This document shows, piece by piece, positions 15,409-26,672 of a stretch of DNA of 64,000 nucleotides. The stretch lies in sequence record NC_031928.1. One strand, written 5' to 3'. A program made the translations under genes and the position numbers. The notes below the pieces were generated by a model. The model worked only from the letters and a program-made list of their open reading frames with translations. It was not told the DNA's origin and searched no databases. Source of the stretch: Escherichia phage WG01. Each line of letters opens with the position of its first letter. Positions within the stretch are counted from its first letter, which is position 1.

Positions 15409-17532
15409 CTACATTTTGAATTTATTTGATAAAGAAGAGATATCCAAAGACGCTGCAAGGATTTCCATAGCCTCGTTGCTTTCAGAAACAGATTCATTAA
15501 CCAAGAATTGACTGAACCCATCCATCAGGCGAACTTCACCAGTTTCCATCAAATGGTCACCATCGTAAACAGATTCGCTGAGCTCTGAAGGAGGTGTTAC
15601 GGTAGCTTCCATAAGGTATTTGTGAGATACTCTATCATTCATGGCAAAAGCCGCTACTTTATCAACCTTCAACAATAATCCACGCGGAAGGATAATTTCT
15701 GCTTCTTCGGCATATTCTGTAAGGTCACCAGGAGCGATAACTTTAACTGCTTCAGCACCTCGAATAACCATACCAATTTCAGCAATTCTATCTGCAGGAC
15801 CTTCAGGTGCAATTGGATTACCAAACTCGTCTTCTTCCCATTCTACCTCTTCGTCATCGACTTCACCTACATCAGATGAACTACCACTAGCCAATTTAAA
15901 CAACTCATCAGCGGAGGATAAAGAACCTTCACCGCCAACAAAAACGGCTTGGTTGTCGAGGGCCATATAATTTTTACCAAATTCACCAAAGATGTTAGGT
16001 TTTAGTGAGGCTGACACAAAGTTCTTAAAGTAAAATGTTTTGTTATCGATATTATGGCGCAGAATTTTGTATGGCAAATCCTGACCACGATACAAAATAG
16101 TACCCTTAGGAAGTTTAATACCCTTAGTAAATGCCGAGTCTAAATCCTTAATCAATTTAATAGCCGTTGTATTGTTTTCGGATTCAGGTTTACCTAAAAG
16201 GAATAAGTTCATAGGAGCATATTCAGCCGCGCAATATTCAATAATAGCATTGCTTTCGTCTTTGGTTAGGTCCTTAGGTTTAATGAGCTCGCCTGAATAA
16301 GCATATGCATCACTAATAGAATCGTTAACCAGTTTATAAACGGCTTCCATAGCGAAAGCAATTCTAGATGCTTTCTCTGAAGGGGAACCCTTAAAACGGG
16401 TACTCAGGTTATTAACAATTTTCTTAATAATATCCAGACTATTGGTTGTATTGATTTGCGAAAGGCCACTTAAAAGTCTATCGACTTCTGTATTAAAAAA
16501 TGCCATATTATTAGAGTAAATTTCAAACCCTTGTTTATCTCTATTAGCATAATTTAGTTTAAATTTACTATCAGTCATTAAAGCGTGTGTGAGAGCAATA
16601 GTGTATCTAAAGTTGGCAAGGTCCTCGCTCTTAGATTTAAACTGAGAAGCCTGACGCATTTTAGTAATGGCACCTTTTTTAAAGTTCTGACTAATCTGTT
16701 CAATACCTTCGTTCTCAGGGCCTTCAGCCGTGTGAACCGGTACAGAAGCTTCAAACTCGTTATAAACCTGCAATTCTTTAGGGGACAAAGTTTCAGGCTC
16801 AGCAGTAGAATACTGCGCCGCCGCTGCCATACGACGCGAAATCTTAGTACGAGTAATGACAGCCTTATCAGTACGTTTCTCTTCAACTTGTGCAATAGAT
16901 GCCGCTACGGCTTCGACCTTACTTACAGCCTGGCCGGTTTTCTTAGAAACATACACTTCGCCAACTTTAGACTCAACTTTAGTATAAAGATCGGCATTAA
17001 TTTCAGGCATACCCTTGATATCTTCAATATTAGCACCACGACGTACTAAAAGAACGTAGGTATGTTTTCCGCTGAATTGGAACATGTCGTCAACAACTTT
17101 AAACTTACCACCGGTACGAGCCATAGCCAAGCGAGCTAATACGCGCTGAACGGTAGGACCTTTACCTTTCATTTTCTTGGTAGGGAACCGGAAAAGAACT
17201 GCATCCATTTTAAGTTTGTTTACTTGTTCGTATACAGTATCAAAAATGGTATTCAGCGTACCAAGTGGGTCAGAACCTAACCCACCTTTCAACTCGGCTG
17301 GGCTACCCTTAGCAGACAAACTCATCAAAATAACATGAACATATTTGTCGCCCGGCTTAACCATTTTAATAGCGTCTCCTTGAGACGCATAAGATACCAT
17401 ACGAGCAACCAGATTATCATTACCTGGTGCTTGGATAGAGAAAATCTGTGGAATACCGGAACCCGGTTTAAGATTTGTTACTGGATAGTTTTTAGCGGAA
17501 TCACTATCAAAAACCTCATTTAAATTTTCCAT
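15409..17532 (-). CDS. alt: Alt-like ADP-ribosyltransferase paralog 1 (707 aa)
   Basis: N-terminal LNEVF (gp21-type L-x-E cleavage context) and conserved packaging region; C-terminal R-S-E motifs YRGQ, FVSASL, EEAEIILPRG. Confidence 0.85.
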   Translation of the reverse strand: MENLNEVFDSDSAKNYPVTNLKPGSGIPQIFSIQAPGNDNLVARMVSYASQGDAIKMVKPGDKYVHVILMSLSAKGSPAELKGGLGSDPLGTLNTIFDTVYEQVNKLKMDAVLFRFPTKKMKGKGPTVQRVLARLAMARTGGKFKVVDDMFQFSGKHTYVLLVRRGANIEDIKGMPEINADLYTKVESKVGEVYVSKKTGQAVSKVEAVAASIAQVEEKRTDKAVITRTKISRRMAAAAQYSTAEPETLSPKELQVYNEFEASVPVHTAEGPENEGIEQISQNFKKGAITKMRQASQFKSKSEDLANFRYTIALTHALMTDSKFKLNYANRDKQGFEIYSNNMAFFNTEVDRLLSGLSQINTTNSLDIIKKIVNNLSTRFKGSPSEKASRIAFAMEAVYKLVNDSISDAYAYSGELIKPKDLTKDESNAIIEYCAAEYAPMNLFLLGKPESENNTTAIKLIKDLDSAFTKGIKLPKGTILYRGQDLPYKILRHNIDNKTFYFKNFVSASLKPNIFGEFGKNYMALDNQAVFVGGEGSLSSADELFKLASGSSSDVGEVDDEEVEWEEDEFGNPIAPEGPADRIAEIGMVIRGAEAVKVIAPGDLTEYAEEAEIILPRGLLLKVDKVAAFAMNDRVSHKYLMEATVTPPSELSESVYDGDHLMETGEVRLMDGFSQFLVNESVSESNEAMEILAASLDISSLSNKFKM

Positions 17533-17535
17533 TAT

Positions 17536-19617
17536 TTACCCTTGGATGAATTTTTCTGGGATGTCATAGAGGTCTATGCATGAAGCCAAAAGAGGCAGTA
17601 CATCAAACCGTGTAGATTTAACAAATGAATCAAAAGATAAGGGGCTTTCGGAAGTATCGAAGTCATCTTGATATACGACCAACTCGCCGGTTTCCATTAG
17701 TACATCACCATCATATACCACAGATTCTTGAAGCTCATCTGTTGTCATAACTTCAGCTTGAATGAGTTTTGTATTACTAGATGTTGTTCCATCATTATTA
17801 GAAGCATCTGTTATTTTATTAACTTTGACCATTAATCCACGCGGTAGAATAACTTCAGCTTCAGTTGCTATTCCGAGATTTCCTGGATATACGACATTAA
17901 CTTTATGGGCCCCATCAATAGCCCATCCTATTTGAACTTTAACATAATCAGGATTTTCTTTATATGCTCTTATTTCATTAGGATTAATAGTTATTCCTTC
18001 TTCATTTTTATCAACTGTCAATTCGTTGCGAACTTCCGGTTCTAAAAGACCAATACCAGCGTGCGTAACACCAAAACGTCCGAAAATTATAGGAGTTAAA
18101 GAAGTAGATACAAAATTTCTAAAATAAAACACTTTATTTTTAACTAGTGCTTCGTATATAGGAGCAGTCATACTCTGGGCACGATAAACTGTAATGCCTT
18201 CCGGTATACGGTCACCATTTTCAAAAGCTGAATCTAAATTATTTACAGCGGATTCGATATCTTTTTCGCTCATAACCTCATAGTTCTGAGGATTATAACG
18301 TCCTAAAAGAAGATTATTTATGTCTGTATATCCTGAACCACAATATTCTCTGATACCACGCTTTTGTGATGGAGTATATTTAGAACCTTCACGAGCAATA
18401 GTAATATCAACCATAATACCACCACCCACACCAGCAAAACTATACACGCGTTTTTTAATGAACTTAGTCTTGGCTGCTTTCCACTTGGCCTCTGTCAATT
18501 CGTTCCAAAGGTCATCAGGTTGGCCTTTACGAGTTCTGTTATGGATAGCCAGCCACTCGCCTTTATATTCTTCGAAAATGGTATTAATAGCAGAGGCATA
18601 TTTTTCTAGAGCTTTAACAGATGTCAAAGGTTCGTTTTTTATTGCTGTAAGAATTTTCTCTTTAATTTTCTCTTGGATTTCACCAATACCGTGAAGTGGG
18701 AACAATTTATAGTCGTAATGCAATTCTTCAGCAGTGCCTTCAGCTACTATATTAGCAACCTTATTTTTAGCCGCAGGAGAATTGTTATTAGTAACCATTT
18801 CCTGAGCCTCAGGGATTAATGGAACTGTTGCCGGTTTATTAAAATCCGCTGCAGTAGCTTCATATTTCTTAAACAATTCACTTTCATTACGATAAGATTC
18901 CAATGATTGGCTTGCTGCAATGGCGCGCCTAGAAATCTTAGTCTTGGTTATAACCATTTTATCAGTGCGACGTTCTTCAACCTTAGCAATACTACCGGCG
19001 ATAGCAGTTTCTTTAGTAACCTGCACGCCTTCTTTTTTAGAAATATAAACTTCACCGACATCAGAATCTACCTTAGTATACAATTCAGCATTAATTCCAG
19101 GCATACCTTTGATATCTTCTATATCAGCTTGTTTACGAACTACCAGGATGTAAGTATGTTTACCGGTAAATTGGTACATAGCCGGAACTACTTTAAAACG
19201 TCCACCTGTTTTCTGTGCTACCAAACGTTGGATAATCCGTTGAACGATAGGGCCTTGACCTTTCATTTTCTTAGTAGGGAAACGGAACATCACGGCATCC
19301 ATACGAAGCTTTTTAACCTGTTCGAATACTACGTCGAAAATGGTATTAATAGCATCAATAGGAGTAGGGCCTAAGCCACCTTTAAGTTCTGCTGGAGTAC
19401 CTTTAGCTGAAAGGCTCATAAGGATAACGTGGGCATATTTATCACCCATCTTAACCTGTTTAATAGCATCGCCTTCAGAAGCATAGGATACCATACGTGC
19501 TACTAACTGAGACTCCGCGTCTCCAATCTTCCAAATCTGAGGTACTTTAAGTTTTGGGTTCAAGTTCACAACAGGCAGTGTACCTTCGGACTCGAACACT
19601 TCATTTAATTGGGTCAT
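17536..19617 (-). CDS. Alt-like ADP-ribosyltransferase paralog 2 (693 aa)
   Basis: Same N-terminal module (MTQLNEVF...MDAVMFRFPTKKMKGQ...ISRRAIAASQSLESY as remembered for T4 Alt); C-terminal YRAQ, FVSTSL, EAEVILPRG. Confidence 0.85.
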   Translation of the reverse strand: MTQLNEVFESEGTLPVVNLNPKLKVPQIWKIGDAESQLVARMVSYASEGDAIKQVKMGDKYAHVILMSLSAKGTPAELKGGLGPTPIDAINTIFDVVFEQVKKLRMDAVMFRFPTKKMKGQGPIVQRIIQRLVAQKTGGRFKVVPAMYQFTGKHTYILVVRKQADIEDIKGMPGINAELYTKVDSDVGEVYISKKEGVQVTKETAIAGSIAKVEERRTDKMVITKTKISRRAIAASQSLESYRNESELFKKYEATAADFNKPATVPLIPEAQEMVTNNNSPAAKNKVANIVAEGTAEELHYDYKLFPLHGIGEIQEKIKEKILTAIKNEPLTSVKALEKYASAINTIFEEYKGEWLAIHNRTRKGQPDDLWNELTEAKWKAAKTKFIKKRVYSFAGVGGGIMVDITIAREGSKYTPSQKRGIREYCGSGYTDINNLLLGRYNPQNYEVMSEKDIESAVNNLDSAFENGDRIPEGITVYRAQSMTAPIYEALVKNKVFYFRNFVSTSLTPIIFGRFGVTHAGIGLLEPEVRNELTVDKNEEGITINPNEIRAYKENPDYVKVQIGWAIDGAHKVNVVYPGNLGIATEAEVILPRGLMVKVNKITDASNNDGTTSSNTKLIQAEVMTTDELQESVVYDGDVLMETGELVVYQDDFDTSESPLSFDSFVKSTRFDVLPLLASCIDLYDIPEKFIQG

Positions 19618-19625
19618 AATCTATC

Positions 19626-21521
19626 CTATTTAAATAAATTTGCTAATTTTTCCATAGAATCTTCATACATAATTCTATCATAATTTCCAAACGAGAATCC
19701 GGTGCTATATGAATTTTCCTCTGTGATTTGCTCGGTAGCTACAACTTCACATTCCACTAAAACATATTTACCAATTGAACCCATAGGTCCCTTGGAAGCA
19801 CCGTATACTTTATTAATCTTAAGCATAACCCCACGAGGAAGAATTACTTCGGTTTCTGTAGACCAATTAGCCAAGTCACCGGGCACAATAACCTTAATTT
19901 TATCAGCACCTTTAATAATTAACCCTAGCTTAATGGTATCTCTAGCACTTCCGGTCGCACTTTTAATGGTGTCTTCAAGATTACTATCTATATCGCTAGA
20001 AAGAGCTTCAGGGTCTAAGTTGGATTGAGCATGACCCATTTCACCGAAAATATTAGGAGCCAATGAAGTTGATGCAAAAATAGGAAGATACATCACCTTA
20101 TGTTTTATAGAATTCAAAGCCATTTCGGTAGGCATTATCTGAGAACGATACACTATGGTTCCTTTAGGAAGTTTTGTACCATTTTCAAATGTAGAATCCA
20201 ACTCACCAATCATTTTTATCATTTCATCGGTGGTATCTGTTTTACCTAGCAAAAAGTTGTTTATATGGTTGTAGCCGCCACGAGTATACTTTTTGACTGC
20301 CTCTTCTTGAGGTTTGGATAAATTAGGATTATCAGATATCTTAAACAACGGTTGGATAGATTTTGTATAAACTGCTACTAAGGATTTTATTACTTCCTTG
20401 ATTTTAGATTCTCTAGCCCAAGTACCTTTAACTGAATCATCTAAAAGGGCCGCAGCGACTAGTCTAAGAATGTCTACATGAGATTTACCTGATTTTAAAG
20501 CCTCTATGACACTATTAGATTTATCTAAAGAATCTGATGCCTCTAAAGCAAACTTTATATCAGCAATTAGTTTAAGTTTGCGCTCGTCTACTTCAAATGA
20601 TGGATTAACACCGTTAAAAATATAATCCAAATATTCTGCCATTTCTTTAGAGGCGTCTTTTAATATTTTATTACTGGCTAAAGCTATTTGGCTTTCTTTA
20701 GAATCTTCAGAAGAATGAACGGAACTAGTAGCAGAATAATCTGCATAAGCTTTTTTGTGCTCTGCCGAAAATTTACTCAATCCTGTAGGCTCGGCGGTAG
20801 AATATAACGCATTTATAGCGGCCCGTTTAGAAACCTTAGTCTTGGTTATAACCATTTTATCAGAACGTGATTTTTCTATTTCGTCTATAGACTTAGCTAT
20901 AGCTTCTAATTTGGTAACATCTTCGCCTGTTTTCTTTGAAACATACACATCACCGACTTCAGATTCGACTTTAGTATACAATTCCGGATTAATATTAGGA
21001 ATACCGTTTATTGATTCTATATTTTTATTTTTACGATAGATAAAAACATATGAATGTTTGCCTGTATATTGATACAAGGCATCAAGGACCTTGAATTGCC
21101 CACCTGCTCTAGTAGCTATTAATTTGGCTAGAACTCGTTGTACAGCTTTTTCCTGACCTTTCATTTTCTTAGTAGGAAAACGGAACATAACGGCATCCAT
21201 ACGGAGCTTTTTAACTTGTTCATAAACCGTATCAAATATAGAACGAATAGCGGAAATGGGGTTACTACCTAAACCACCTTTGAGTTCTGCCGGGGCCCCT
21301 TTAGATGATAGGCTCATTAAAATAATATGAACGTATTTGTCACCCGGTTTAACTTGGCGGATTGTATCACCTTCAGAAGTATATGAAACCATGCGTGCAA
21401 CAAGGTTCTCATTACCTTCAGCCTTTATATTCCAAATCTGTGGTACTTTAAGTTTAGGGTTTAAATTGACAGCTGATAAATCTATAGCGCCGTCAAATAC
21501 CTCATTCAATTGTTCGGACAT
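19626..21521 (-). CDS. Alt-like ADP-ribosyltransferase paralog 3 (631 aa)
   Basis: Same N-terminal module; C-terminal YRSQ, FASTSL, ETEVILPRG; divergent central region. Confidence 0.85.
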   Translation of the reverse strand: MSEQLNEVFDGAIDLSAVNLNPKLKVPQIWNIKAEGNENLVARMVSYTSEGDTIRQVKPGDKYVHIILMSLSSKGAPAELKGGLGSNPISAIRSIFDTVYEQVKKLRMDAVMFRFPTKKMKGQEKAVQRVLAKLIATRAGGQFKVLDALYQYTGKHSYVFIYRKNKNIESINGIPNINPELYTKVESEVGDVYVSKKTGEDVTKLEAIAKSIDEIEKSRSDKMVITKTKVSKRAAINALYSTAEPTGLSKFSAEHKKAYADYSATSSVHSSEDSKESQIALASNKILKDASKEMAEYLDYIFNGVNPSFEVDERKLKLIADIKFALEASDSLDKSNSVIEALKSGKSHVDILRLVAAALLDDSVKGTWARESKIKEVIKSLVAVYTKSIQPLFKISDNPNLSKPQEEAVKKYTRGGYNHINNFLLGKTDTTDEMIKMIGELDSTFENGTKLPKGTIVYRSQIMPTEMALNSIKHKVMYLPIFASTSLAPNIFGEMGHAQSNLDPEALSSDIDSNLEDTIKSATGSARDTIKLGLIIKGADKIKVIVPGDLANWSTETEVILPRGVMLKINKVYGASKGPMGSIGKYVLVECEVVATEQITEENSYSTGFSFGNYDRIMYEDSMEKLANLFK

Positions 21522-21755: not shown

Positions 21756-23279
21756 TTATAGTCCAGTTTGAGACCAATCACCAAATACATCTTCAAATGT
21801 ATCAGCTTCTGTTTTATCGAAACGCCAACCTTTAATGATTGGAAGGAAAATACCTACAGTATCGGTACGTCCTTTAGAATGAACCCAACCATTACATTCA
21901 CAGTCAGCAATACGTCCAATCAACTTACCTTCACGAGCTTGTTTCATAAGAAGTTCACGGTCTAAATCAGGACGGTCTTCCAATGGAATCAATACTTTTT
22001 TACCTGATTTATCTTTCTTATGGGTGGTATCTTTAAAGCCTGAACCACAGTCGCTTGTAATTCGACGACAACGTGATACCAACTCGACACCACCTAGCTT
22101 GTTAGGGTCCTTCGAGTGTTCATAATAACCCACCACTTCTAAAGCAATATCGATTACTTCTTTGAACTTGATAAGATTCTTAGAACGACGGTTTTCCCAG
22201 TAGGAGTCCATGTTCTTAAGGATAATGCCTTCCAGACCTTGGTCGACATATTTCTTATAAACGACTTTAGCTTCTTCAAGATTATTAACCCACTGGTTTT
22301 CGATAGCTTCAACACGCGTTGTACCATGCGATACGACATTATGAGCAACCATAAGTTCTAAGGCTGTAAAGCGTACATCATACTTATCGCCTTTAATTTT
22401 ACCTTCGGAATATACGACATCCAATGGGACATAATCCCATGCCTGTAATACCATACCAGCGGCTTCAGTAGCCGAAATAGTTCCTTGAAGAGCTTTGTTA
22501 GCCAAGCCATTTGACGTAGAACGATCGGCGACAGTTTGGAATTCCTTAGCCTTACTTAATTCAGGAAGTTCCTCGTCAAACATACTAAACAAATCATTAG
22601 ATGCTTTAGGTTCTACCTTAGGAGTATGGTAAACTAATTCGCCATCAATCATAACGCCATTAGGATGGCGTTGTCGAGCTTCTTCGGTCATGGCCATTAA
22701 TTCAGCCGCCAAAAGATTAAGCCCTTGATATTCGTTACCACCACGAGTAAGGAATGTCACACCATCGTTACGAACTTCGGCAAAACAACGAGCACCATCA
22801 GCTTTTAATTGAGCAAACGCTGGCCATTTAATATTTTTCTTAATCAAAGCTTCATCATAAGAACTCGCCAACATCTGCGGTTGTTCAGGGATTAAACCTT
22901 TCCAAACCTTGTTAGCAATAGAAATCGATGCACCACATTCAAGGTCGCGCATCATTACACGACGTAATACCTCGGCATCCGGGGCCTTAGCATCAGCAAT
23001 GATTTGAGCCAGTTCTTCAATAGCCGCATTACCCGTAATCTTACGTGTGGCTAATGTGAATTCAGCGAAATCAAGAAGGTCTTCAAGAGTAATCATACCA
23101 AAGGATTGAGATGTAAATCCAGGTTCTGGCCACTTTTTAATACCGTAGTTCAGACGACGGGTATAAGCCATACGATAAACACGTTTCAGAAGCTCATTGT
23201 TCTTTTCACGAGCAATAATGGCTTCTTTAGCTTTAGTAGAATCAATAGCAGCAATTTCGTTTAAAATATCTAAAATCAT
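21756..23279 (-). CDS. 30: ATP-dependent DNA ligase
   Basis: Start at MILDILNEIAAIDSTKAKEAIIAREKNNELLKRVYRMAYTR, close to remembered T4 ligase N-terminus; SD GAGGTGAT; adenylation Lys in IKKW context. Confidence 0.93.
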   Translation of the reverse strand: MILDILNEIAAIDSTKAKEAIIAREKNNELLKRVYRMAYTRRLNYGIKKWPEPGFTSQSFGMITLEDLLDFAEFTLATRKITGNAAIEELAQIIADAKAPDAEVLRRVMMRDLECGASISIANKVWKGLIPEQPQMLASSYDEALIKKNIKWPAFAQLKADGARCFAEVRNDGVTFLTRGGNEYQGLNLLAAELMAMTEEARQRHPNGVMIDGELVYHTPKVEPKASNDLFSMFDEELPELSKAKEFQTVADRSTSNGLANKALQGTISATEAAGMVLQAWDYVPLDVVYSEGKIKGDKYDVRFTALELMVAHNVVSHGTTRVEAIENQWVNNLEEAKVVYKKYVDQGLEGIILKNMDSYWENRRSKNLIKFKEVIDIALEVVGYYEHSKDPNKLGGVELVSRCRRITSDCGSGFKDTTHKKDKSGKKVLIPLEDRPDLDRELLMKQAREGKLIGRIADCECNGWVHSKGRTDTVGIFLPIIKGWRFDKTEADTFEDVFGDWSQTGL

Positions 23280-23289
23280 AATCACCTCA

Positions 23290-23601
23290 TTAGTCATGGA
23301 TTCTATTATAAGCCACATCAGCCAAAAGCAAGTCTAATCGCTTATGATAAGAGAACACAAATCTCATTCGCCCATCAGATTTGAACTTGGACATAAAGTG
23401 GACATAAATGAATCCCTGTTCGACGCATTCGCGCCAAACAGGATGGTCTTTAGCCGGATTTACATCAAATGAGTAATCATGATTCACATGACGAATAAAC
23501 TGGTTTACATGACCATAATCCATTGTAGTGGTAGGACCATAGTCTGAAATTGTATGAACTACAAACATATTAACCTCGAGCAATCCATTCAACTGCGGCA
23601 T
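23290..23601 (-). CDS. Hypothetical protein (30.1 position, 103 aa)
   Basis: ORF in conserved 30.x cluster position. Confidence 0.5.
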   Translation of the reverse strand: MPQLNGLLEVNMFVVHTISDYGPTTTMDYGHVNQFIRHVNHDYSFDVNPAKDHPVWRECVEQGFIYVHFMSKFKSDGRMRFVFSYHKRLDLLLADVAYNRIHD

Positions 23602-24208
23602 TATTACGAAGGGATTCGATTGCTGCGATATCGTCCCATGAATTAACCTTTACGGCTAAATTAGGTTTAAAGTCACGTTCACCACGAGCTAACCAATAAA
23701 CTTGGATATCCATGAGAACATTAGATGCAGCATCACAGTGGTGAGCCAAATCATCAACATAAAACTTAATACGTTTACCGTAAGTATTTTTAGCTCTTAT
23801 GAAGAGGTCTTCTTTTGATTCTGAATGACCACACATCAGAATCTCCTTGAATGCGCCAGGGAACAAAGCATTCAAATTGAATTGTCTATTCAGCAGGGCA
23901 TCAATTGAGTCGCCTAGCGCAGTCACGGCTACAAAATCGAAGTCTTTTTTGAGCCTGTTGATATGTTTTAATGCGTCCATGTAAGGAGACAGATAACGAA
24001 TAAAATCTGACTGATTATATTTCTCGATTAAACGAGCGCCTAATTCATTATCACAATTAAACAGCTCGCCTGGAGATAAGAAACGTTCGTCCTGAATCAT
24101 ATTCAAAATATGTTCTAAAGGCAAATTATATTTCTGTGCGAAATAAGGCAAGCCGGACTGCCAACTTAAACATACTCCATCGATATCTGTTAAGATAACT
24201 GGTTTCAT
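23570..24208 (-). CDS. HAD-superfamily hydrolase-like protein (possible 5'-nucleotidase), 30.2 position
   Basis: N-terminal ILTDIDGV (HAD motif I) and later YVDDL (motif IV-like). Confidence 0.55.
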   Translation of the reverse strand: MKPVILTDIDGVCLSWQSGLPYFAQKYNLPLEHILNMIQDERFLSPGELFNCDNELGARLIEKYNQSDFIRYLSPYMDALKHINRLKKDFDFVAVTALGDSIDALLNRQFNLNALFPGAFKEILMCGHSESKEDLFIRAKNTYGKRIKFYVDDLAHHCDAASNVLMDIQVYWLARGERDFKPNLAVKVNSWDDIAAIESLRNNAAVEWIARG

Positions 24209-24663
24209 AATAAATCTCTCAATTTGTTTAGGATGTCGATAAACTCTTTTTCAGTTAGTATTGTATCACATTCTGTAAGGTGGCTCGCCATCGAATGCTT
24301 TAAAACTTTGCCCTTTGTAGCTTGTAATGCGTCGCGGAATCCTTTGTTTTGGAGCGCTGCTTCAAAATAAGCATTTGTATACAACTCTTTCCATGATGCA
24401 GAGTATCTTGAAAAGGGAATTCCAAGCCAGAAAAGCGTCCCACGGTCCGCAGCTCTTGCATAAGCTCTTCCAGTTTGTTGTGCGGCCAGACCGGACATCC
24501 CAAATATACGTTTTTGTTGTTCATGATTTCTCACCTTACACCCTTGGAGGAATCCTTCGAGCCCTCCAAATTGGATACCATCCATAACGAAAGGCCATTT
24601 AGCAAAGTTACTTAATGCACACGATGGCCACGGAAAATTACTTCTGATTTCTAACTCAGACAT
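24205..24663 (-). CDS. NADAR (YbiA/DUF1768)-like protein, 30.3 position (152 aa from ATG)
   Basis: SNFAKWPFVMDGIQFGGLEGFLQGCK resembles the NADAR signature FSNF..WP...DG....E.....K; start ATG overlaps upstream stop (ATGTCTGA). Confidence 0.55.
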   Translation of the reverse strand: MSELEIRSNFPWPSCALSNFAKWPFVMDGIQFGGLEGFLQGCKVRNHEQQKRIFGMSGLAAQQTGRAYARAADRGTLFWLGIPFSRYSASWKELYTNAYFEAALQNKGFRDALQATKGKVLKHSMASHLTECDTILTEKEFIDILNKLRDLL

Positions 24664-24868
24664 CTTTGACACTGATAATCTTGGTTGCATACCACATGCC
24701 ATGGTCTGGCAATCTTTCTTTAATTGACTGCCCGCGATATGTTTTTCGCATAACAACAGTTTTAATAGCATCTTCATCGCAAGCATATGGCGGTGATAAA
24801 TCAATAACACGATAAGTCACTTCAACCAGTTCCAAGCCAAACAGCTTTTTAAATAATTTCTTAATCAT
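24656..24868 (-). CDS. Small protein (70 aa), tandem paralog A
   Basis: Paralog of 24878..25090; shared EVTYRV.DLSP and C-terminal IISVKD(V/I). Confidence 0.6.
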   Translation of the reverse strand: MIKKLFKKLFGLELVEVTYRVIDLSPPYACDEDAIKTVVMRKTYRGQSIKERLPDHGMWYATKIISVKDV

Positions 24869-24877
24869 GAAGACTCC

Positions 24878-25090
24878 TTAAATATCTTTGACACTGATAA
24901 TCTCTACATCAGCCCAATGACCATAACCAGGTAGACGGTCTTTAATAGATAATCCGCCGTCAGATTTCAGCATTTTAATTGTTTTAGTATATGGTTCATC
25001 TTGTGGATGCACAGGAGATAAATCAGTTACACGATAAGTCACTTCGACCATTTCCGTACCTAATAATTTCTGAATCAATTTCTTAAACAT
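24878..25090 (-). CDS. Small protein (70 aa), tandem paralog B
   Basis: Paralog of 24656..24868; the 3' ends share an identical 23-nt stretch. Confidence 0.6.
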   Translation of the reverse strand: MFKKLIQKLLGTEMVEVTYRVTDLSPVHPQDEPYTKTIKMLKSDGGLSIKDRLPGYGHWADVEIISVKDI

Positions 25091-26457: not shown

Positions 26458-26486
26458 CCTTTTTTTTAAAGATTTAGAAACAAAAA

Positions 26487-26508
26487 TGGGACTCCGAAGA
26501 GTCCCATA
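26487..26508 (-). terminator. Rho-independent terminator
   Basis: AUGGGACUC-UUCG-GAGUCCCAU followed by UUUUUGUUU on minus strand. Confidence 0.6.
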
Positions 26509-26510
26509 AC

Positions 26511-26672
26511 TTATGCCTGAGGCTTACCAAAGCAAGCAGCATCTGCACGCAATACTGCACGAGCACGAGCTTGAAGCTTATCAACTACCTGATTGATACG
26601 CTTGTTGGACGCACGCTTGTAACCAGCGCGTTTAGAGGTACCGTCAACTACTTTAACTTCTTTCTTAGCCAT
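26511..26672 (-). CDS. Small basic protein (53 aa), 30.9 position
   Basis: Translated by hand: MAKKEVKVVDGTSKRAGYKRASNKRINQVVDKLQARARAVLRADAACFGKPQA; not in ORF track. Confidence 0.4.
   Translation of the reverse strand: MAKKEVKVVDGTSKRAGYKRASNKRINQVVDKLQARARAVLRADAACFGKPQA

What the first reader, a model, noticed from the sequence alone, without database searches (positions are those of the whole stretch)
23570..24663. NADAR-like and HAD-like gene pair in the 30.x cluster, possible ADP-ribose / nucleotide processing module
The 152-aa protein has SNFAKWPFVMDGIQFGGLEGFLQGCK, which resembles the NADAR (YbiA/DUF1768) signature; NADAR enzymes have been reported to remove ADP-ribose from guanine bases. 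The adjacent 212-aa protein has HAD phosphatase motif I (ILTDIDGV) and a YVDDL motif IV. The two genes are translationally coupled and sit a few kb from the Alt ART cluster. A phage NADAR could counter host DNA ADP-ribosylating toxins (DarT-like) or process phage-made ADP-ribosylation.
Basis: inference. Interest (0 to 1): 0.6.

Follow-up and report, generated by a model that had tools for sequence, protein, structure and literature searches.

The report
Known phage anti-DarT NADAR plus HAD phosphatase
The two genes are the T4-type genes 30.3 (AdfN, a NADAR enzyme already shown to strip ADP-ribose off phage DNA and defeat the bacterial DarTG1 defence) and 30.2 (an uncharacterised HAD-type phosphatase), and the evidence says they are neighbours, not a working pair.

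Summary
On the minus strand, 24205-24663 encodes a 152-aa protein and 23570-24208 a 212-aa protein, joined by an ATGA stop/start overlap.

The 152-aa protein is gp30.3 (Pfam Phage_30_3, E 3.6e-64). It is 86% identical to T4 gp30.3, now named AdfN. Two papers show that AdfN removes ADP-ribose from guanine in DNA, and it is necessary and sufficient for T-even phages to overcome DarTG1. My model has the NADAR fold, and E36, K43 and H123 are invariant.

The 212-aa protein is gp30.2, a confident HAD fold with a C1 cap. All four catalytic motifs are invariant. No curated family claims it. Its distant relatives match the NT5C 5'(3')-deoxyribonucleotidase family, so a nucleotide monophosphate phosphatase is the best guess.

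The "module" idea is not supported:
- In published T4 transposon sequencing, 30.3 is lost under DarTG1 (log2FC -7.25), while 30.2 is unaffected (-0.12) there and in three other conditions read.
- The adjacency is broken in many phage lineages.
- Every gene in this cluster overlaps or abuts its neighbour.

Verdict: a correctly recognised, already known counter-defence gene next to an orphan phosphatase. Low novelty.

The parts
24205..24663 (-). Gene 30.3 / adfN: 152-aa NADAR-superfamily DNA ADP-ribosylglycohydrolase (anti-DarT factor NADAR). It is full length and keeps the C-terminal helix that the RB69 allele lacks.
   Evidence: Pfam PF08010 Phage_30_3, E 3.6e-64. 86% identical over all 152 residues to T4 gp30.3. 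AF2 model pLDDT 94.9. The top three Foldseek PDB hits are YbiA 2b3w, G. lovleyi NADAR 8bat and Phytophthora NADAR 8bau. Function of the T4 orthologue: PMC11825919 and PMC11125620.
24535..24558 (-). Codons of the NADAR catalytic residues E36 (24556-24558) and K43 (24535-24537), inside the EGFLQGCK motif.
   Evidence: Both are invariant in 41 family members at 36-91% identity to the window protein. The coordinates were verified. T4 E36A and K43A variants gave only partial rescue of RB69 on DarTG1 (PMC11825919).
24295..24297 (-). Codon of H123, the last-strand histidine that marks the phage gp30.3 branch of NADARs. YbiA has Glu and DarT1-linked NADARs have Asp at this position.
   Evidence: Invariant in alignments A2 and A3. 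The residue was described in PMC11125620. Coordinates verified.
23570..24208 (-). Gene 30.2: 212-aa divergent HAD-superfamily phosphatase with a C1 helical cap, NT5C-like. It lacks the roughly 85-aa C-terminal tail of T4 gp30.2.
24205..24208 (-). ATGA overlap of the 30.3 stop (TGA) and the 30.2 start (ATG). A GAGAG Shine-Dalgarno-like element lies just upstream, inside 30.3.
   Evidence: Read directly from the sequence.
24656..24663 (-). ATGTCTGA overlap of the 30.3 start and the stop of the upstream 30.4-like gene. 30.3 has no recognisable Shine-Dalgarno sequence, so its translation probably depends on coupling to 30.4.
   Evidence: Read from the sequence; T4 has the same arrangement.
24656..25090 (-). 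Two tandem 30.4-like genes of 70 aa each (24656-24868 and 24878-25090), immediately upstream of adfN.
   Evidence: Both match phrog_2042, E 4.1e-26 and 8.1e-34. The two copies are 58% identical at protein level. Related loci carry a single copy. Many close relatives lack about 200 bp here.
23290..23568 (-). Gene 30.1 (DUF3045). The likely start is the ATG at 23568, one base after the 30.2 stop (TAATATG).
   Evidence: Pfam PF11243, E 5.9e-16, matching from residue 12 of the extended ORF. Junction sequence. T4 gene order.
21756..23318 (-). Gene 30, ATP-dependent DNA ligase. It is the conserved anchor of the 30.x cluster.
   Evidence: Pfam DNA_ligase_A_M, E 5.1e-24. Synteny with T4.
15409..21521 (-). 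Three tandem Alt-like ADP-ribosyltransferase genes (15409-17532, 17536-19617, 19626-21521). Context only; not part of the pair.
   Evidence: Pfam ADPrib_exo_Tox, E 2.6e-17, 4.5e-36 and 7.6e-14.

Best explanation
The window comes from a T4-like (JS98/Bp7/IME08-type) myovirus. The finding covers its genes 30.3 and 30.2, in the conserved early cluster alt - 30 (ligase) - 30.1 - 30.2 - 30.3 - 30.4.

Gene 30.3 is adfN. It encodes a stand-alone NADAR enzyme that hydrolyses the N-glycosidic bond between ADP-ribose and guanine in DNA. This undoes the modification that the host DarT1 toxin puts on replicating phage DNA, so the phage can grow on DarTG1 hosts. The activity is shown experimentally for the 86%-identical T4 protein and is inferred here by orthology, with the fold and catalytic residues intact.

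Gene 30.2 encodes an independent Mg2+-dependent HAD phosphomonoesterase with a C1 cap, which points to a small-molecule substrate. It belongs to a large, uncurated family on the edge of the NT5C 5'(3')-deoxyribonucleotidase family. Its most likely activity is dephosphorylation of a (deoxy)nucleoside monophosphate. This is an inference; the substrate and the biological role are untested.

The two genes are co-transcribed and translationally coupled because the whole cluster is packed that way. They are not functionally dependent on each other.
For: Identity
- The best DNA matches are Dhakavirus-type T4-like phages at 97-99.6%.
- Gene order is identical to T4.

30.3
- Pfam PF08010, E 3.6e-64, and 86% identity to T4 AdfN.
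- E36, K43 and H123 are invariant.
- The AF2 model has pLDDT 94.9, and NADAR structures are its only significant fold hits.
- There are weak direct sequence matches to YbiA and to TIGR02464.
- Published work: T4 adfN is necessary and sufficient against DarTG1, and the purified protein removes ADP-ribose from DNA. It is guanine-specific.
- T4 transposon sequencing gives log2FC -7.25 under DarTG1.

30.2
- The AF2 model has pLDDT 94.5 and a HAD fold with a C1 cap.
- DxD, T, K and DD motif residues are invariant across 38-83% identity.
- The family has 1127 representatives at 50% clustering. Of 40 sampled distant members, 19 match NT5C.
- The local match DGVxxxWQSGL versus DGVLADFESGL of cytosolic deoxyribonucleotidase 2jao is weak (E 0.3).

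Independence of the two genes
- T4 30.2 is non-essential, with insertions at 72 of 72 sites.
- It is unaffected by DarTG1 (-0.12, p 0.61), DarTG2 (0.00), M9 medium (-0.10) and the next comparison in the table, sheet Data S9, listed as K-12 versus clinical isolate CFE299 (-0.21).
- 30.2 is absent within 4 kb of the NADAR gene in 57 of the 80 viral loci.
- In Klebsiella T4-like phages, 30.2 stays next to ligase and Alt (Roth04), while the NADAR sits among tRNA genes about 60 kb away by genome position in the closely related Roth01.
Against: No experiment exists on this particular phage's proteins.

AdfN of T4 works fully only during T-even infection, so something else in the infected cell contributes, and that factor is unknown. 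A contribution of 30.2 against other DarT variants, or in hosts that were not tested, cannot be excluded.

The NT5C-like assignment of 30.2 is transitive. The window protein itself scores only E 0.053 against NT5C, below threshold. The fold searches do not separate NT5C from other HAD IA enzymes.

The 30.3-30.2 adjacency appears in a more distant lineage too (L015, 44% identity). It is therefore old, which leaves a little room for a shared role.
Confidence: 0.85

Rival explanations
1. The two proteins form a functional ADP-ribose processing module. AdfN releases ADP-ribose, or a phosphorylated derivative, from DNA, and gp30.2 dephosphorylates the product. Alternatively, gp30.2 is the unknown T-even factor that AdfN needs for full activity.
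For: The two genes share an ATGA translational coupling. The adjacency is conserved in T4-, RB69- and JS98-like phages and in one distant lineage, L015. AdfN of T4 is reported to need an unidentified T-even factor.
Against: T4 insertions in 30.2 (71 sites) show no depletion on DarTG1: log2FC -0.12, p 0.61, against -7.25 for 30.3. The adjacency is lost in most NADAR loci, and in Klebsiella T4-like phages where both genes exist. A HAD phosphomonoesterase cannot cleave the pyrophosphate of free ADP-ribose, which has no phosphomonoester (established HAD chemistry). All genes in the cluster are coupled in the same way.
Confidence: 0.05
2. gp30.2 is a counter-defence or pool-shaping deoxynucleotidase that works like T5 Dmp. 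It removes a specific dNMP or non-canonical nucleotide monophosphate so that a host nucleotide-based immune pathway, such as Kongming dITP signalling, is not triggered, or so that unwanted nucleotides stay out of phage DNA.
For: The family affinity is NT5C-like and the catalytic motifs are intact. The gene lies in an early cluster rich in host-manipulation genes, namely Alt and AdfN. There is a published precedent: the phosphatase activity of T5 Dmp blocks Kongming by depleting dAMP (bioRxiv 10.1101/2024.12.20.629578). The gene is dispensable on laboratory hosts, as is typical of anti-defence genes.
Against: T5 Dmp is not detectably related to gp30.2 beyond motif I (hhalign probability 1.8%). 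No phenotype was seen in any T4 transposon-sequencing condition read. The substrate is unknown. T4 recycles host dNMPs, so a broad nucleotidase would be costly (established T4 nucleotide metabolism; my knowledge).
Confidence: 0.15
3. AdfN here acts mainly on phage-made or soluble ADP-ribose derivatives, for example products of the three neighbouring Alt-like transferases, rather than on host-inflicted DNA damage.
For: The gene lies about 2.7 kb from three Alt-like ARTs. A comparative study proposed soluble ADP-ribose derivatives as preferred substrates of phage NADARs, and noted co-expression with ARTs in T4-like phages (PMC9503650).
Against: Direct experiments show guanine-ADP-ribose DNA hydrolysis and a DarTG1-specific requirement for the T4 orthologue. 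adfN mutants show no fitness defect without DarTG1. In other lineages the NADAR sits far from Alt.
Confidence: 0.05

Closest known systems
T4 gp30.3 = AdfN (anti-DarT factor NADAR), Pfam PF08010 Phage_30_3
   Same: 86% identical over the full 152 residues. It occupies the same position between 30.4 and 30.2, with the same ATGTCTGA and ATGA junctions. E36, K43 and H123 are the same, and the C-terminal helix is intact.
   Different: There are 22 substitutions, none at invariant positions. The upstream 30.4 gene is duplicated in the window. The protein of this phage has not been tested.
DarG1 / DarT1-associated NADAR antitoxins (BC4488 family; G. lovleyi NADAR, PDB 8bat) and E. coli YbiA (PDB 2b3w)
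   Same: Same YbiA/NADAR fold, with TM 0.60-0.67. The N-terminal SNF...W/H.F...E..Q..K motif is shared. The T4 orthologue has the same guanine de-ADP-ribosylation chemistry.
   Different: Sequence similarity is only marginal (E 0.06-1.2). The last-strand catalytic residue is His rather than Asp or Glu. There is no N-terminal extension and no linked DarT toxin, so it is an orphan antitoxin. The T4 protein does not rescue DarT1 toxicity in uninfected cells.
NT5C family 5'(3')-deoxyribonucleotidases (Pfam PF06941; cdN/mdN, PDB 2jao and 6g2n; 3bwv)
   Different: The window protein is below the NT5C threshold (13.8 bits against a cut-off of 24.8). Other HAD IA enzymes score equally well by fold. 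The substrate is unknown.
T5 Dmp deoxynucleoside-5'-monophosphatase (anti-Kongming factor)
   Same: A phage-encoded early enzyme with a HAD-type DxD motif. It shows that a phage nucleotidase can act as a counter-defence.
   Different: No detectable homology beyond motif I (hhalign probability 1.8%). No Pfam family matches it. This is an analogy only.

Membership tests
NADAR superfamily (YbiA fold), phage gp30.3/AdfN branch | [quoted passage not shown] | tested here: met
   AF2 model pLDDT 94.9, with helices H35-41, H47-54, H58-68, H89-105, H107-115 and H138-151 plus small strands. The only Foldseek PDB hits with probability of 0.98 or more are YbiA 2b3w (TM 0.67), NADAR 8bat and NADAR 8bau.
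NADAR superfamily (YbiA fold), phage gp30.3/AdfN branch | Conserved catalytic Glu and Lys (E36 and K43 in T4 AdfN numbering) | tested here: met
   E36 and K43 are present and invariant in 41 sequences. The mutant data are from T4.
NADAR superfamily (YbiA fold), phage gp30.3/AdfN branch | Histidine in the last strand in place of the Glu (YbiA) or Asp (BC4488) residue | tested here: met
   H123 lies just after strand 120-122 of the model and is invariant. The criterion comes from PMC11125620.
NADAR superfamily (YbiA fold), phage gp30.3/AdfN branch | Sequence membership in Pfam PF08010 | tested here: met
   215.2 bits against a cut-off of 36.
NADAR superfamily (YbiA fold), phage gp30.3/AdfN branch | Hydrolysis of guanine-linked ADP-ribose on DNA and rescue from DarTG1 | not testable with these tools
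   Shown for the 86%-identical T4 protein only.
HAD superfamily phosphatase (subfamily I, C1 cap) | Rossmannoid core with motif I DxD at the end of strand 1 | tested here: met
   Strand 4-7 is followed by D8-I-D10. Both Asp residues are invariant.
HAD superfamily phosphatase (subfamily I, C1 cap) | Motif II Thr/Ser, motif III Lys, motif IV acidic pair | tested here: met
   T96 is at the end of strand 91-96 (conserved in at least 90% of sequences). K132 is invariant. D152-D153, at the end of strand 147-152, are invariant.
HAD superfamily phosphatase (subfamily I, C1 cap) | Helical cap inserted directly after motif I (C1 position) | tested here: met
   Helices 16-86 lie between strand 1 and strand 91-96. 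The best fold matches are C1-capped HAD IA enzymes.
HAD superfamily phosphatase (subfamily I, C1 cap) | Mg2+-dependent phosphomonoesterase activity | not testable with these tools
   No experimental report on gp30.2 was found. A search for 'gp30.2' returned no papers.
NT5C 5'(3')-deoxyribonucleotidase family (Pfam PF06941) | Score above the family's gathering threshold | tested here: not met
   13.8 bits against a cut-off of 24.8 for the window protein. Only 7 of 40 close relatives match weakly. Among distant relatives, 19 of 40 match, best E 6.1e-10. It is therefore a neighbour of the family, not a demonstrated member.
NT5C 5'(3')-deoxyribonucleotidase family (Pfam PF06941) | Nucleotide-binding cap residues and dNMP specificity | tested here: inconclusive
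   The invariant W16 aligns with the Phe eight residues after the nucleophile in cdN 2jao. The role of that Phe in base stacking is recalled from the literature and was not tested here.
   Linkage is lost in most loci. 30.2 has no DarTG1 phenotype in T4.

The most novel reading that the evidence does not exclude
gp30.2 is a nucleotide-specific phosphatase that T4-like phages use as a counter-defence or pool-sanitising enzyme, analogous to T5 Dmp against Kongming. It would act on a host immune pathway that has not yet been tested with T-even phages. Its persistent place beside ligase, Alt and AdfN would then reflect membership of an early anti-defence island rather than cooperation with AdfN. 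A related possibility: the small upstream protein gp30.4, duplicated in this phage, rather than gp30.2, is the missing T-even factor that potentiates AdfN.
Probability: 0.12. Interest if true: 0.5.

Novelty: already known. Interest (0 to 1): 0.2.

Why it matters
That is useful as a check on the scan, but it adds nothing new. AdfN was characterised genetically and biochemically in 2024-2025, and this phage simply carries an intact orthologue. It should therefore resist DarTG1-type defence, which matters modestly for predicting host range in phage therapy.

The remaining open item is gp30.2. It is a near-universal, catalytically intact HAD phosphatase of T4-like phages, with no known substrate and no phenotype in the screens read. 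It belongs to a family of more than a thousand 50%-identity clusters that no curated model covers. Finding its substrate would fill one of the roughly 100 functional gaps in the T4 gene map.

Tried and rejected
1. gp30.2 as the unknown T-even factor needed by AdfN. Rejected on the published T4 transposon-sequencing data: no depletion of 30.2 insertions under DarTG1.

2. Conserved NADAR-HAD synteny as evidence for a module. Rejected: 30.2 lies within 4 kb of the NADAR gene in only 21 of 80 viral loci, all of them T4-like lineages. Klebsiella T4-like phages keep both genes but about 60 kb apart.

3. A search for any recurrent neighbour of phage NADAR genes outside the T4 group. None was found.

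4. Direct sequence assignment of gp30.2. Pfam, NCBIfam and PDB searches with the single sequence and with a 40-sequence profile gave only sub-threshold hits: NT5C E 0.053, 2jao E 0.3.

5. Homology between gp30.2 and T5 Dmp. Not detectable.

7. gp30.4 as an AdfN partner. Its DarTG1-specific depletion (-1.79, adjusted p 0.014) is more simply explained in cis. 30.3 has no Shine-Dalgarno sequence and its ATG overlaps the 30.4 stop. 30.4 occurs only with the closely related T4-type alleles, so co-occurrence says nothing.

8. The overlapping ORF 30.3'. It is open only in close relatives, and judged by eye it diverges much more than the main frame, so it is probably not a gene.

9. Promoter and terminator scan. 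Promoter-like sites are not above chance. The only convincing terminator (26486-26507) lies upstream of the whole cluster.
Full report
**What is there.** The window is a T4-like myovirus genome segment. The 1.9 kb around the finding is 97-99.6% identical to Salmonella phage vB_SalD_ABTNLS3 and to Escherichia phages LHE83, PSD2002, Bp7 and IME08.

On the minus strand the gene order is as follows:
- three Alt-like ADP-ribosyltransferases (15409-21521)
- DNA ligase gp30 (21756-23318)
- 30.1 / DUF3045 (to 23568)
- 30.2 (23570-24208)
- 30.3 (24205-24663)
- two 30.4-like genes (24656-24868 and 24878-25090)

This is the T4 order alt-alt.1-30-30.1-30.2-30.3-30.4. The finding's coordinates are exactly genes 30.2 and 30.3. 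The quoted peptides, the ATGA stop/start overlap and the proximity to Alt genes are all confirmed.

**The 152-aa protein.**
- It matches Pfam PF08010 (Bacteriophage protein GP30.3) at E 3.6e-64.
- It is 86% identical, without gaps, to T4 gp30.3.
- Direct similarity to cellular NADARs is marginal but real. phmmer finds E. coli YbiA (2b3w) as the only PDB hit (E 1.2), aligning SNFAKWPFVMDGIQFGGLEGFLQGCK with SNFAAWPIKVDGKTWPTSEHYFQAQK. A 41-sequence profile improves this to E 0.062, and TIGR02464 gives E 0.098.
- An AlphaFold2 model built on 40 homologues is confident (pLDDT 94.9).
- The model's only meaningful Foldseek hits in the PDB are the three NADAR structures: YbiA (TM 0.67), Geobacter lovleyi NADAR 8bat and Phytophthora NADAR with ADP-ribose 8bau.
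- E36, K43 and H123 are invariant across members 36-91% identical to the window protein.

**What is already known about gp30.3.** Two papers settle the function of the T4 orthologue.

PMC11125620 (Toxins 2024) calls phage NADARs "gp30.3 proteins". It notes that they carry a histidine where YbiA has Glu and DarT1-linked NADARs have Asp. It shows that purified T4 gp30.3 removes ADP-ribose from guanosine but not from thymidine in DNA, yet fails to rescue DarT1 toxicity in uninfected cells.

PMC11825919 (Nat Commun 2025) mapped DarTG1 resistance of T-even phages to gene 30.3 and renamed it adfN. Its main results:
- Deleting adfN makes T4 and T2 DarTG1-sensitive.
- Expressing it rescues RB69, whose allele is truncated by 15 residues.
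- E36A and K43A variants weaken rescue.
- The purified enzyme de-ADP-ribosylates DNA.

An independent T4 transposon screen (bioRxiv 10.1101/2025.11.20.689424) found 30.3 insertions lost on DarTG1 (log2FC -7.25), with no effect otherwise.

The window allele is full length, with the C-terminal helix (residues 138-151) intact.

**The 212-aa protein.**
- It is 74% identical to residues 1-191 of T4 gp30.2. The T4 protein has an extra, variable, aromatic-rich tail of about 85 aa that the window protein lacks.
- No curated family reaches threshold. Pfam NT5C scores 13.8 bits against a cut-off of 24.8. NCBIfam finds nothing. PHROG 420 is "unknown function".
- The AlphaFold2 model is confident (pLDDT 94.5). 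It is a HAD Rossmannoid core with a helical cap (residues 16-86) inserted right after strand 1, which is the C1 position.
- D8, D10, K132, D152 and D153 are invariant and T96 nearly so in 40 homologues down to 38% identity. R108, N111, W16 and several cap residues are invariant as well.
- The DxD form of motif I, with the second Asp acting as general acid/base, is the signature of phosphoryl transfer rather than dehalogenation (established HAD enzymology; my knowledge).
- An exhaustive profile search finds 1127 representatives at 50% clustering (472 at E of 1e-10 or better). Of 40 sampled distant members, 19 match Pfam NT5C, best E 6.1e-10.

I conclude that gp30.2 is an active small-molecule phosphomonoesterase. 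Its nearest curated neighbours are the 5'(3')-deoxyribonucleotidases. The substrate is not established.

**Is it a module?** Four lines of evidence say no.

1. In the T4 transposon data, 30.2 tolerates insertions at 72 of 72 sites. It shows no depletion in any comparison read:

| Comparison | log2FC | p |
|---|---|---|
| DarTG1 | -0.12 | 0.61 (71 sites) |
| DarTG2 | 0.00 | 0.99 |
| LB versus M9 | -0.10 | 0.61 |
| Sheet Data S9 (listed as K-12 versus CFE299) | -0.21 | 0.32 |

2. Linkage is lineage-specific. Among 80 viral contigs holding a gp30.3-type NADAR, I counted the following:
- 30.2 directly follows the NADAR in 15, all T4-, RB69- or JS98-like except one distant lineage.
- 30.2 lies about 0.7-1.2 kb downstream in 5.
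- 30.2 is absent within 4 kb in 57.
- 1 contig ends inside the 30.3 gene.

In Klebsiella T4-like phages, 30.2 stays beside ligase and Alt (Roth04). The NADAR sits among tRNA genes at a genome position about 60 kb away in the closely related Roth01. No other gene family recurs next to the NADAR outside the T4 group.

3. Translational coupling is not specific to this pair. 30.4/30.3 overlap as ATGTCTGA, 30.3/30.2 as ATGA, and 30.2/30.1 abut as TAATATG.

4. Chemically, free ADP-ribose offers no phosphomonoester for a HAD enzyme.

**A side lead.** The second gene that is significant under DarTG1 in T4 is 30.4 (log2FC -1.79, adjusted p 0.014). It is unaffected in the other comparisons. PMC11825919 reports that AdfN of T4 needs an unidentified T-even factor for full activity, so gp30.4 is a conceivable candidate, and this phage carries two diverged copies. 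However, in both T4 and the window, 30.3 has no Shine-Dalgarno sequence and its ATG overlaps the 30.4 stop. Insertions in 30.4 should therefore lower AdfN translation in cis, and I favour that explanation.

**Role of gp30.2.** The best-supported statement is [quoted passage not shown].

By analogy, T5 Dmp is a phage dNMP phosphatase that blocks the Kongming defence by depleting dAMP. gp30.2 is not detectably related to Dmp beyond motif I, so this is a model for how it might work, not a family assignment. I give a counter-defence or pool-sanitising role about 0.12-0.15 probability.

Novelty is "already known" for the NADAR, which is the core of the finding. gp30.2 is an uncharacterised but widely annotated HAD hydrolase; some GenBank records already call it 5' nucleotidase, putative phosphatase or HAD hydrolase.

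Interest is 0.2. A specialist would not be surprised, and the only open question it sharpens is the substrate of gp30.2.

Noticed in passing
window 24656-25090 (minus strand): There are two tandem 30.4-like genes (70 aa each, 58% identical, both phrog_2042) directly upstream of adfN. T4 and all 14 related viral loci with a 30.4 have one copy, and many close relatives lack about 200 bp here. In T4, 30.4 is the only gene besides adfN that is significantly depleted under DarTG1 (log2FC -1.79). This is probably a cis effect, because 30.3 has no Shine-Dalgarno sequence and overlaps the 30.4 stop.
   Followed up: partly
window 15409-21521 (minus strand): There are three tandem Alt-like ADP-ribosyltransferase paralogues (707, 693 and 631 aa), whereas T4 has one alt plus the remnants alt.-1 and alt.-2. 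A recent screen links T4 Alt to evasion of Mokosh type I (bioRxiv 10.1101/2025.11.20.689424), so paralogue expansion may broaden the anti-defence range.
   Followed up: partly
window 24300-24524 (minus strand, alternative frame inside 30.3): A 74-codon ORF corresponds to the annotated T4 gene 30.3'. It is open in 13 of the 14 closely related loci, shortened in one (L008) and absent in divergent NADAR genes. By eye, its protein sequence diverges much more between T4 and the window than the main frame does, which suggests it is not a real gene.
   Followed up: partly
window 23570-23630 (C-terminus of gp30.2) versus L001:7475-7730 (T4): T4 and many other phages carry a variable 60-130-aa aromatic and proline-rich C-terminal tail on gp30.2. 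It often ends in a GTGIEYL..QPT-like motif. The tail is missing from the window protein and from many Acinetobacter, Aeromonas and Vibrio phage homologues. Its function is unknown.
   Followed up: no
L083:2443-3450 (Klebsiella phage Roth01) and similar loci L031, L035, L047, L073, L076: In Klebsiella T4-like phages the gp30.3-type NADAR sits inside the tRNA gene cluster. It is directly preceded by a conserved protein of about 170-185 aa with unknown function, and a short ORF annotated as anti-CBASS acb1 lies close by.
   Followed up: no
window 26486-26507 (minus strand): A strong intrinsic-terminator-like hairpin (ATGGGACTCTTCGGAGTCCCAT followed by TTTTTG) follows the small gene at 26511-26672. 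It probably marks the upstream boundary of the 30.x transcription unit.
   Followed up: no
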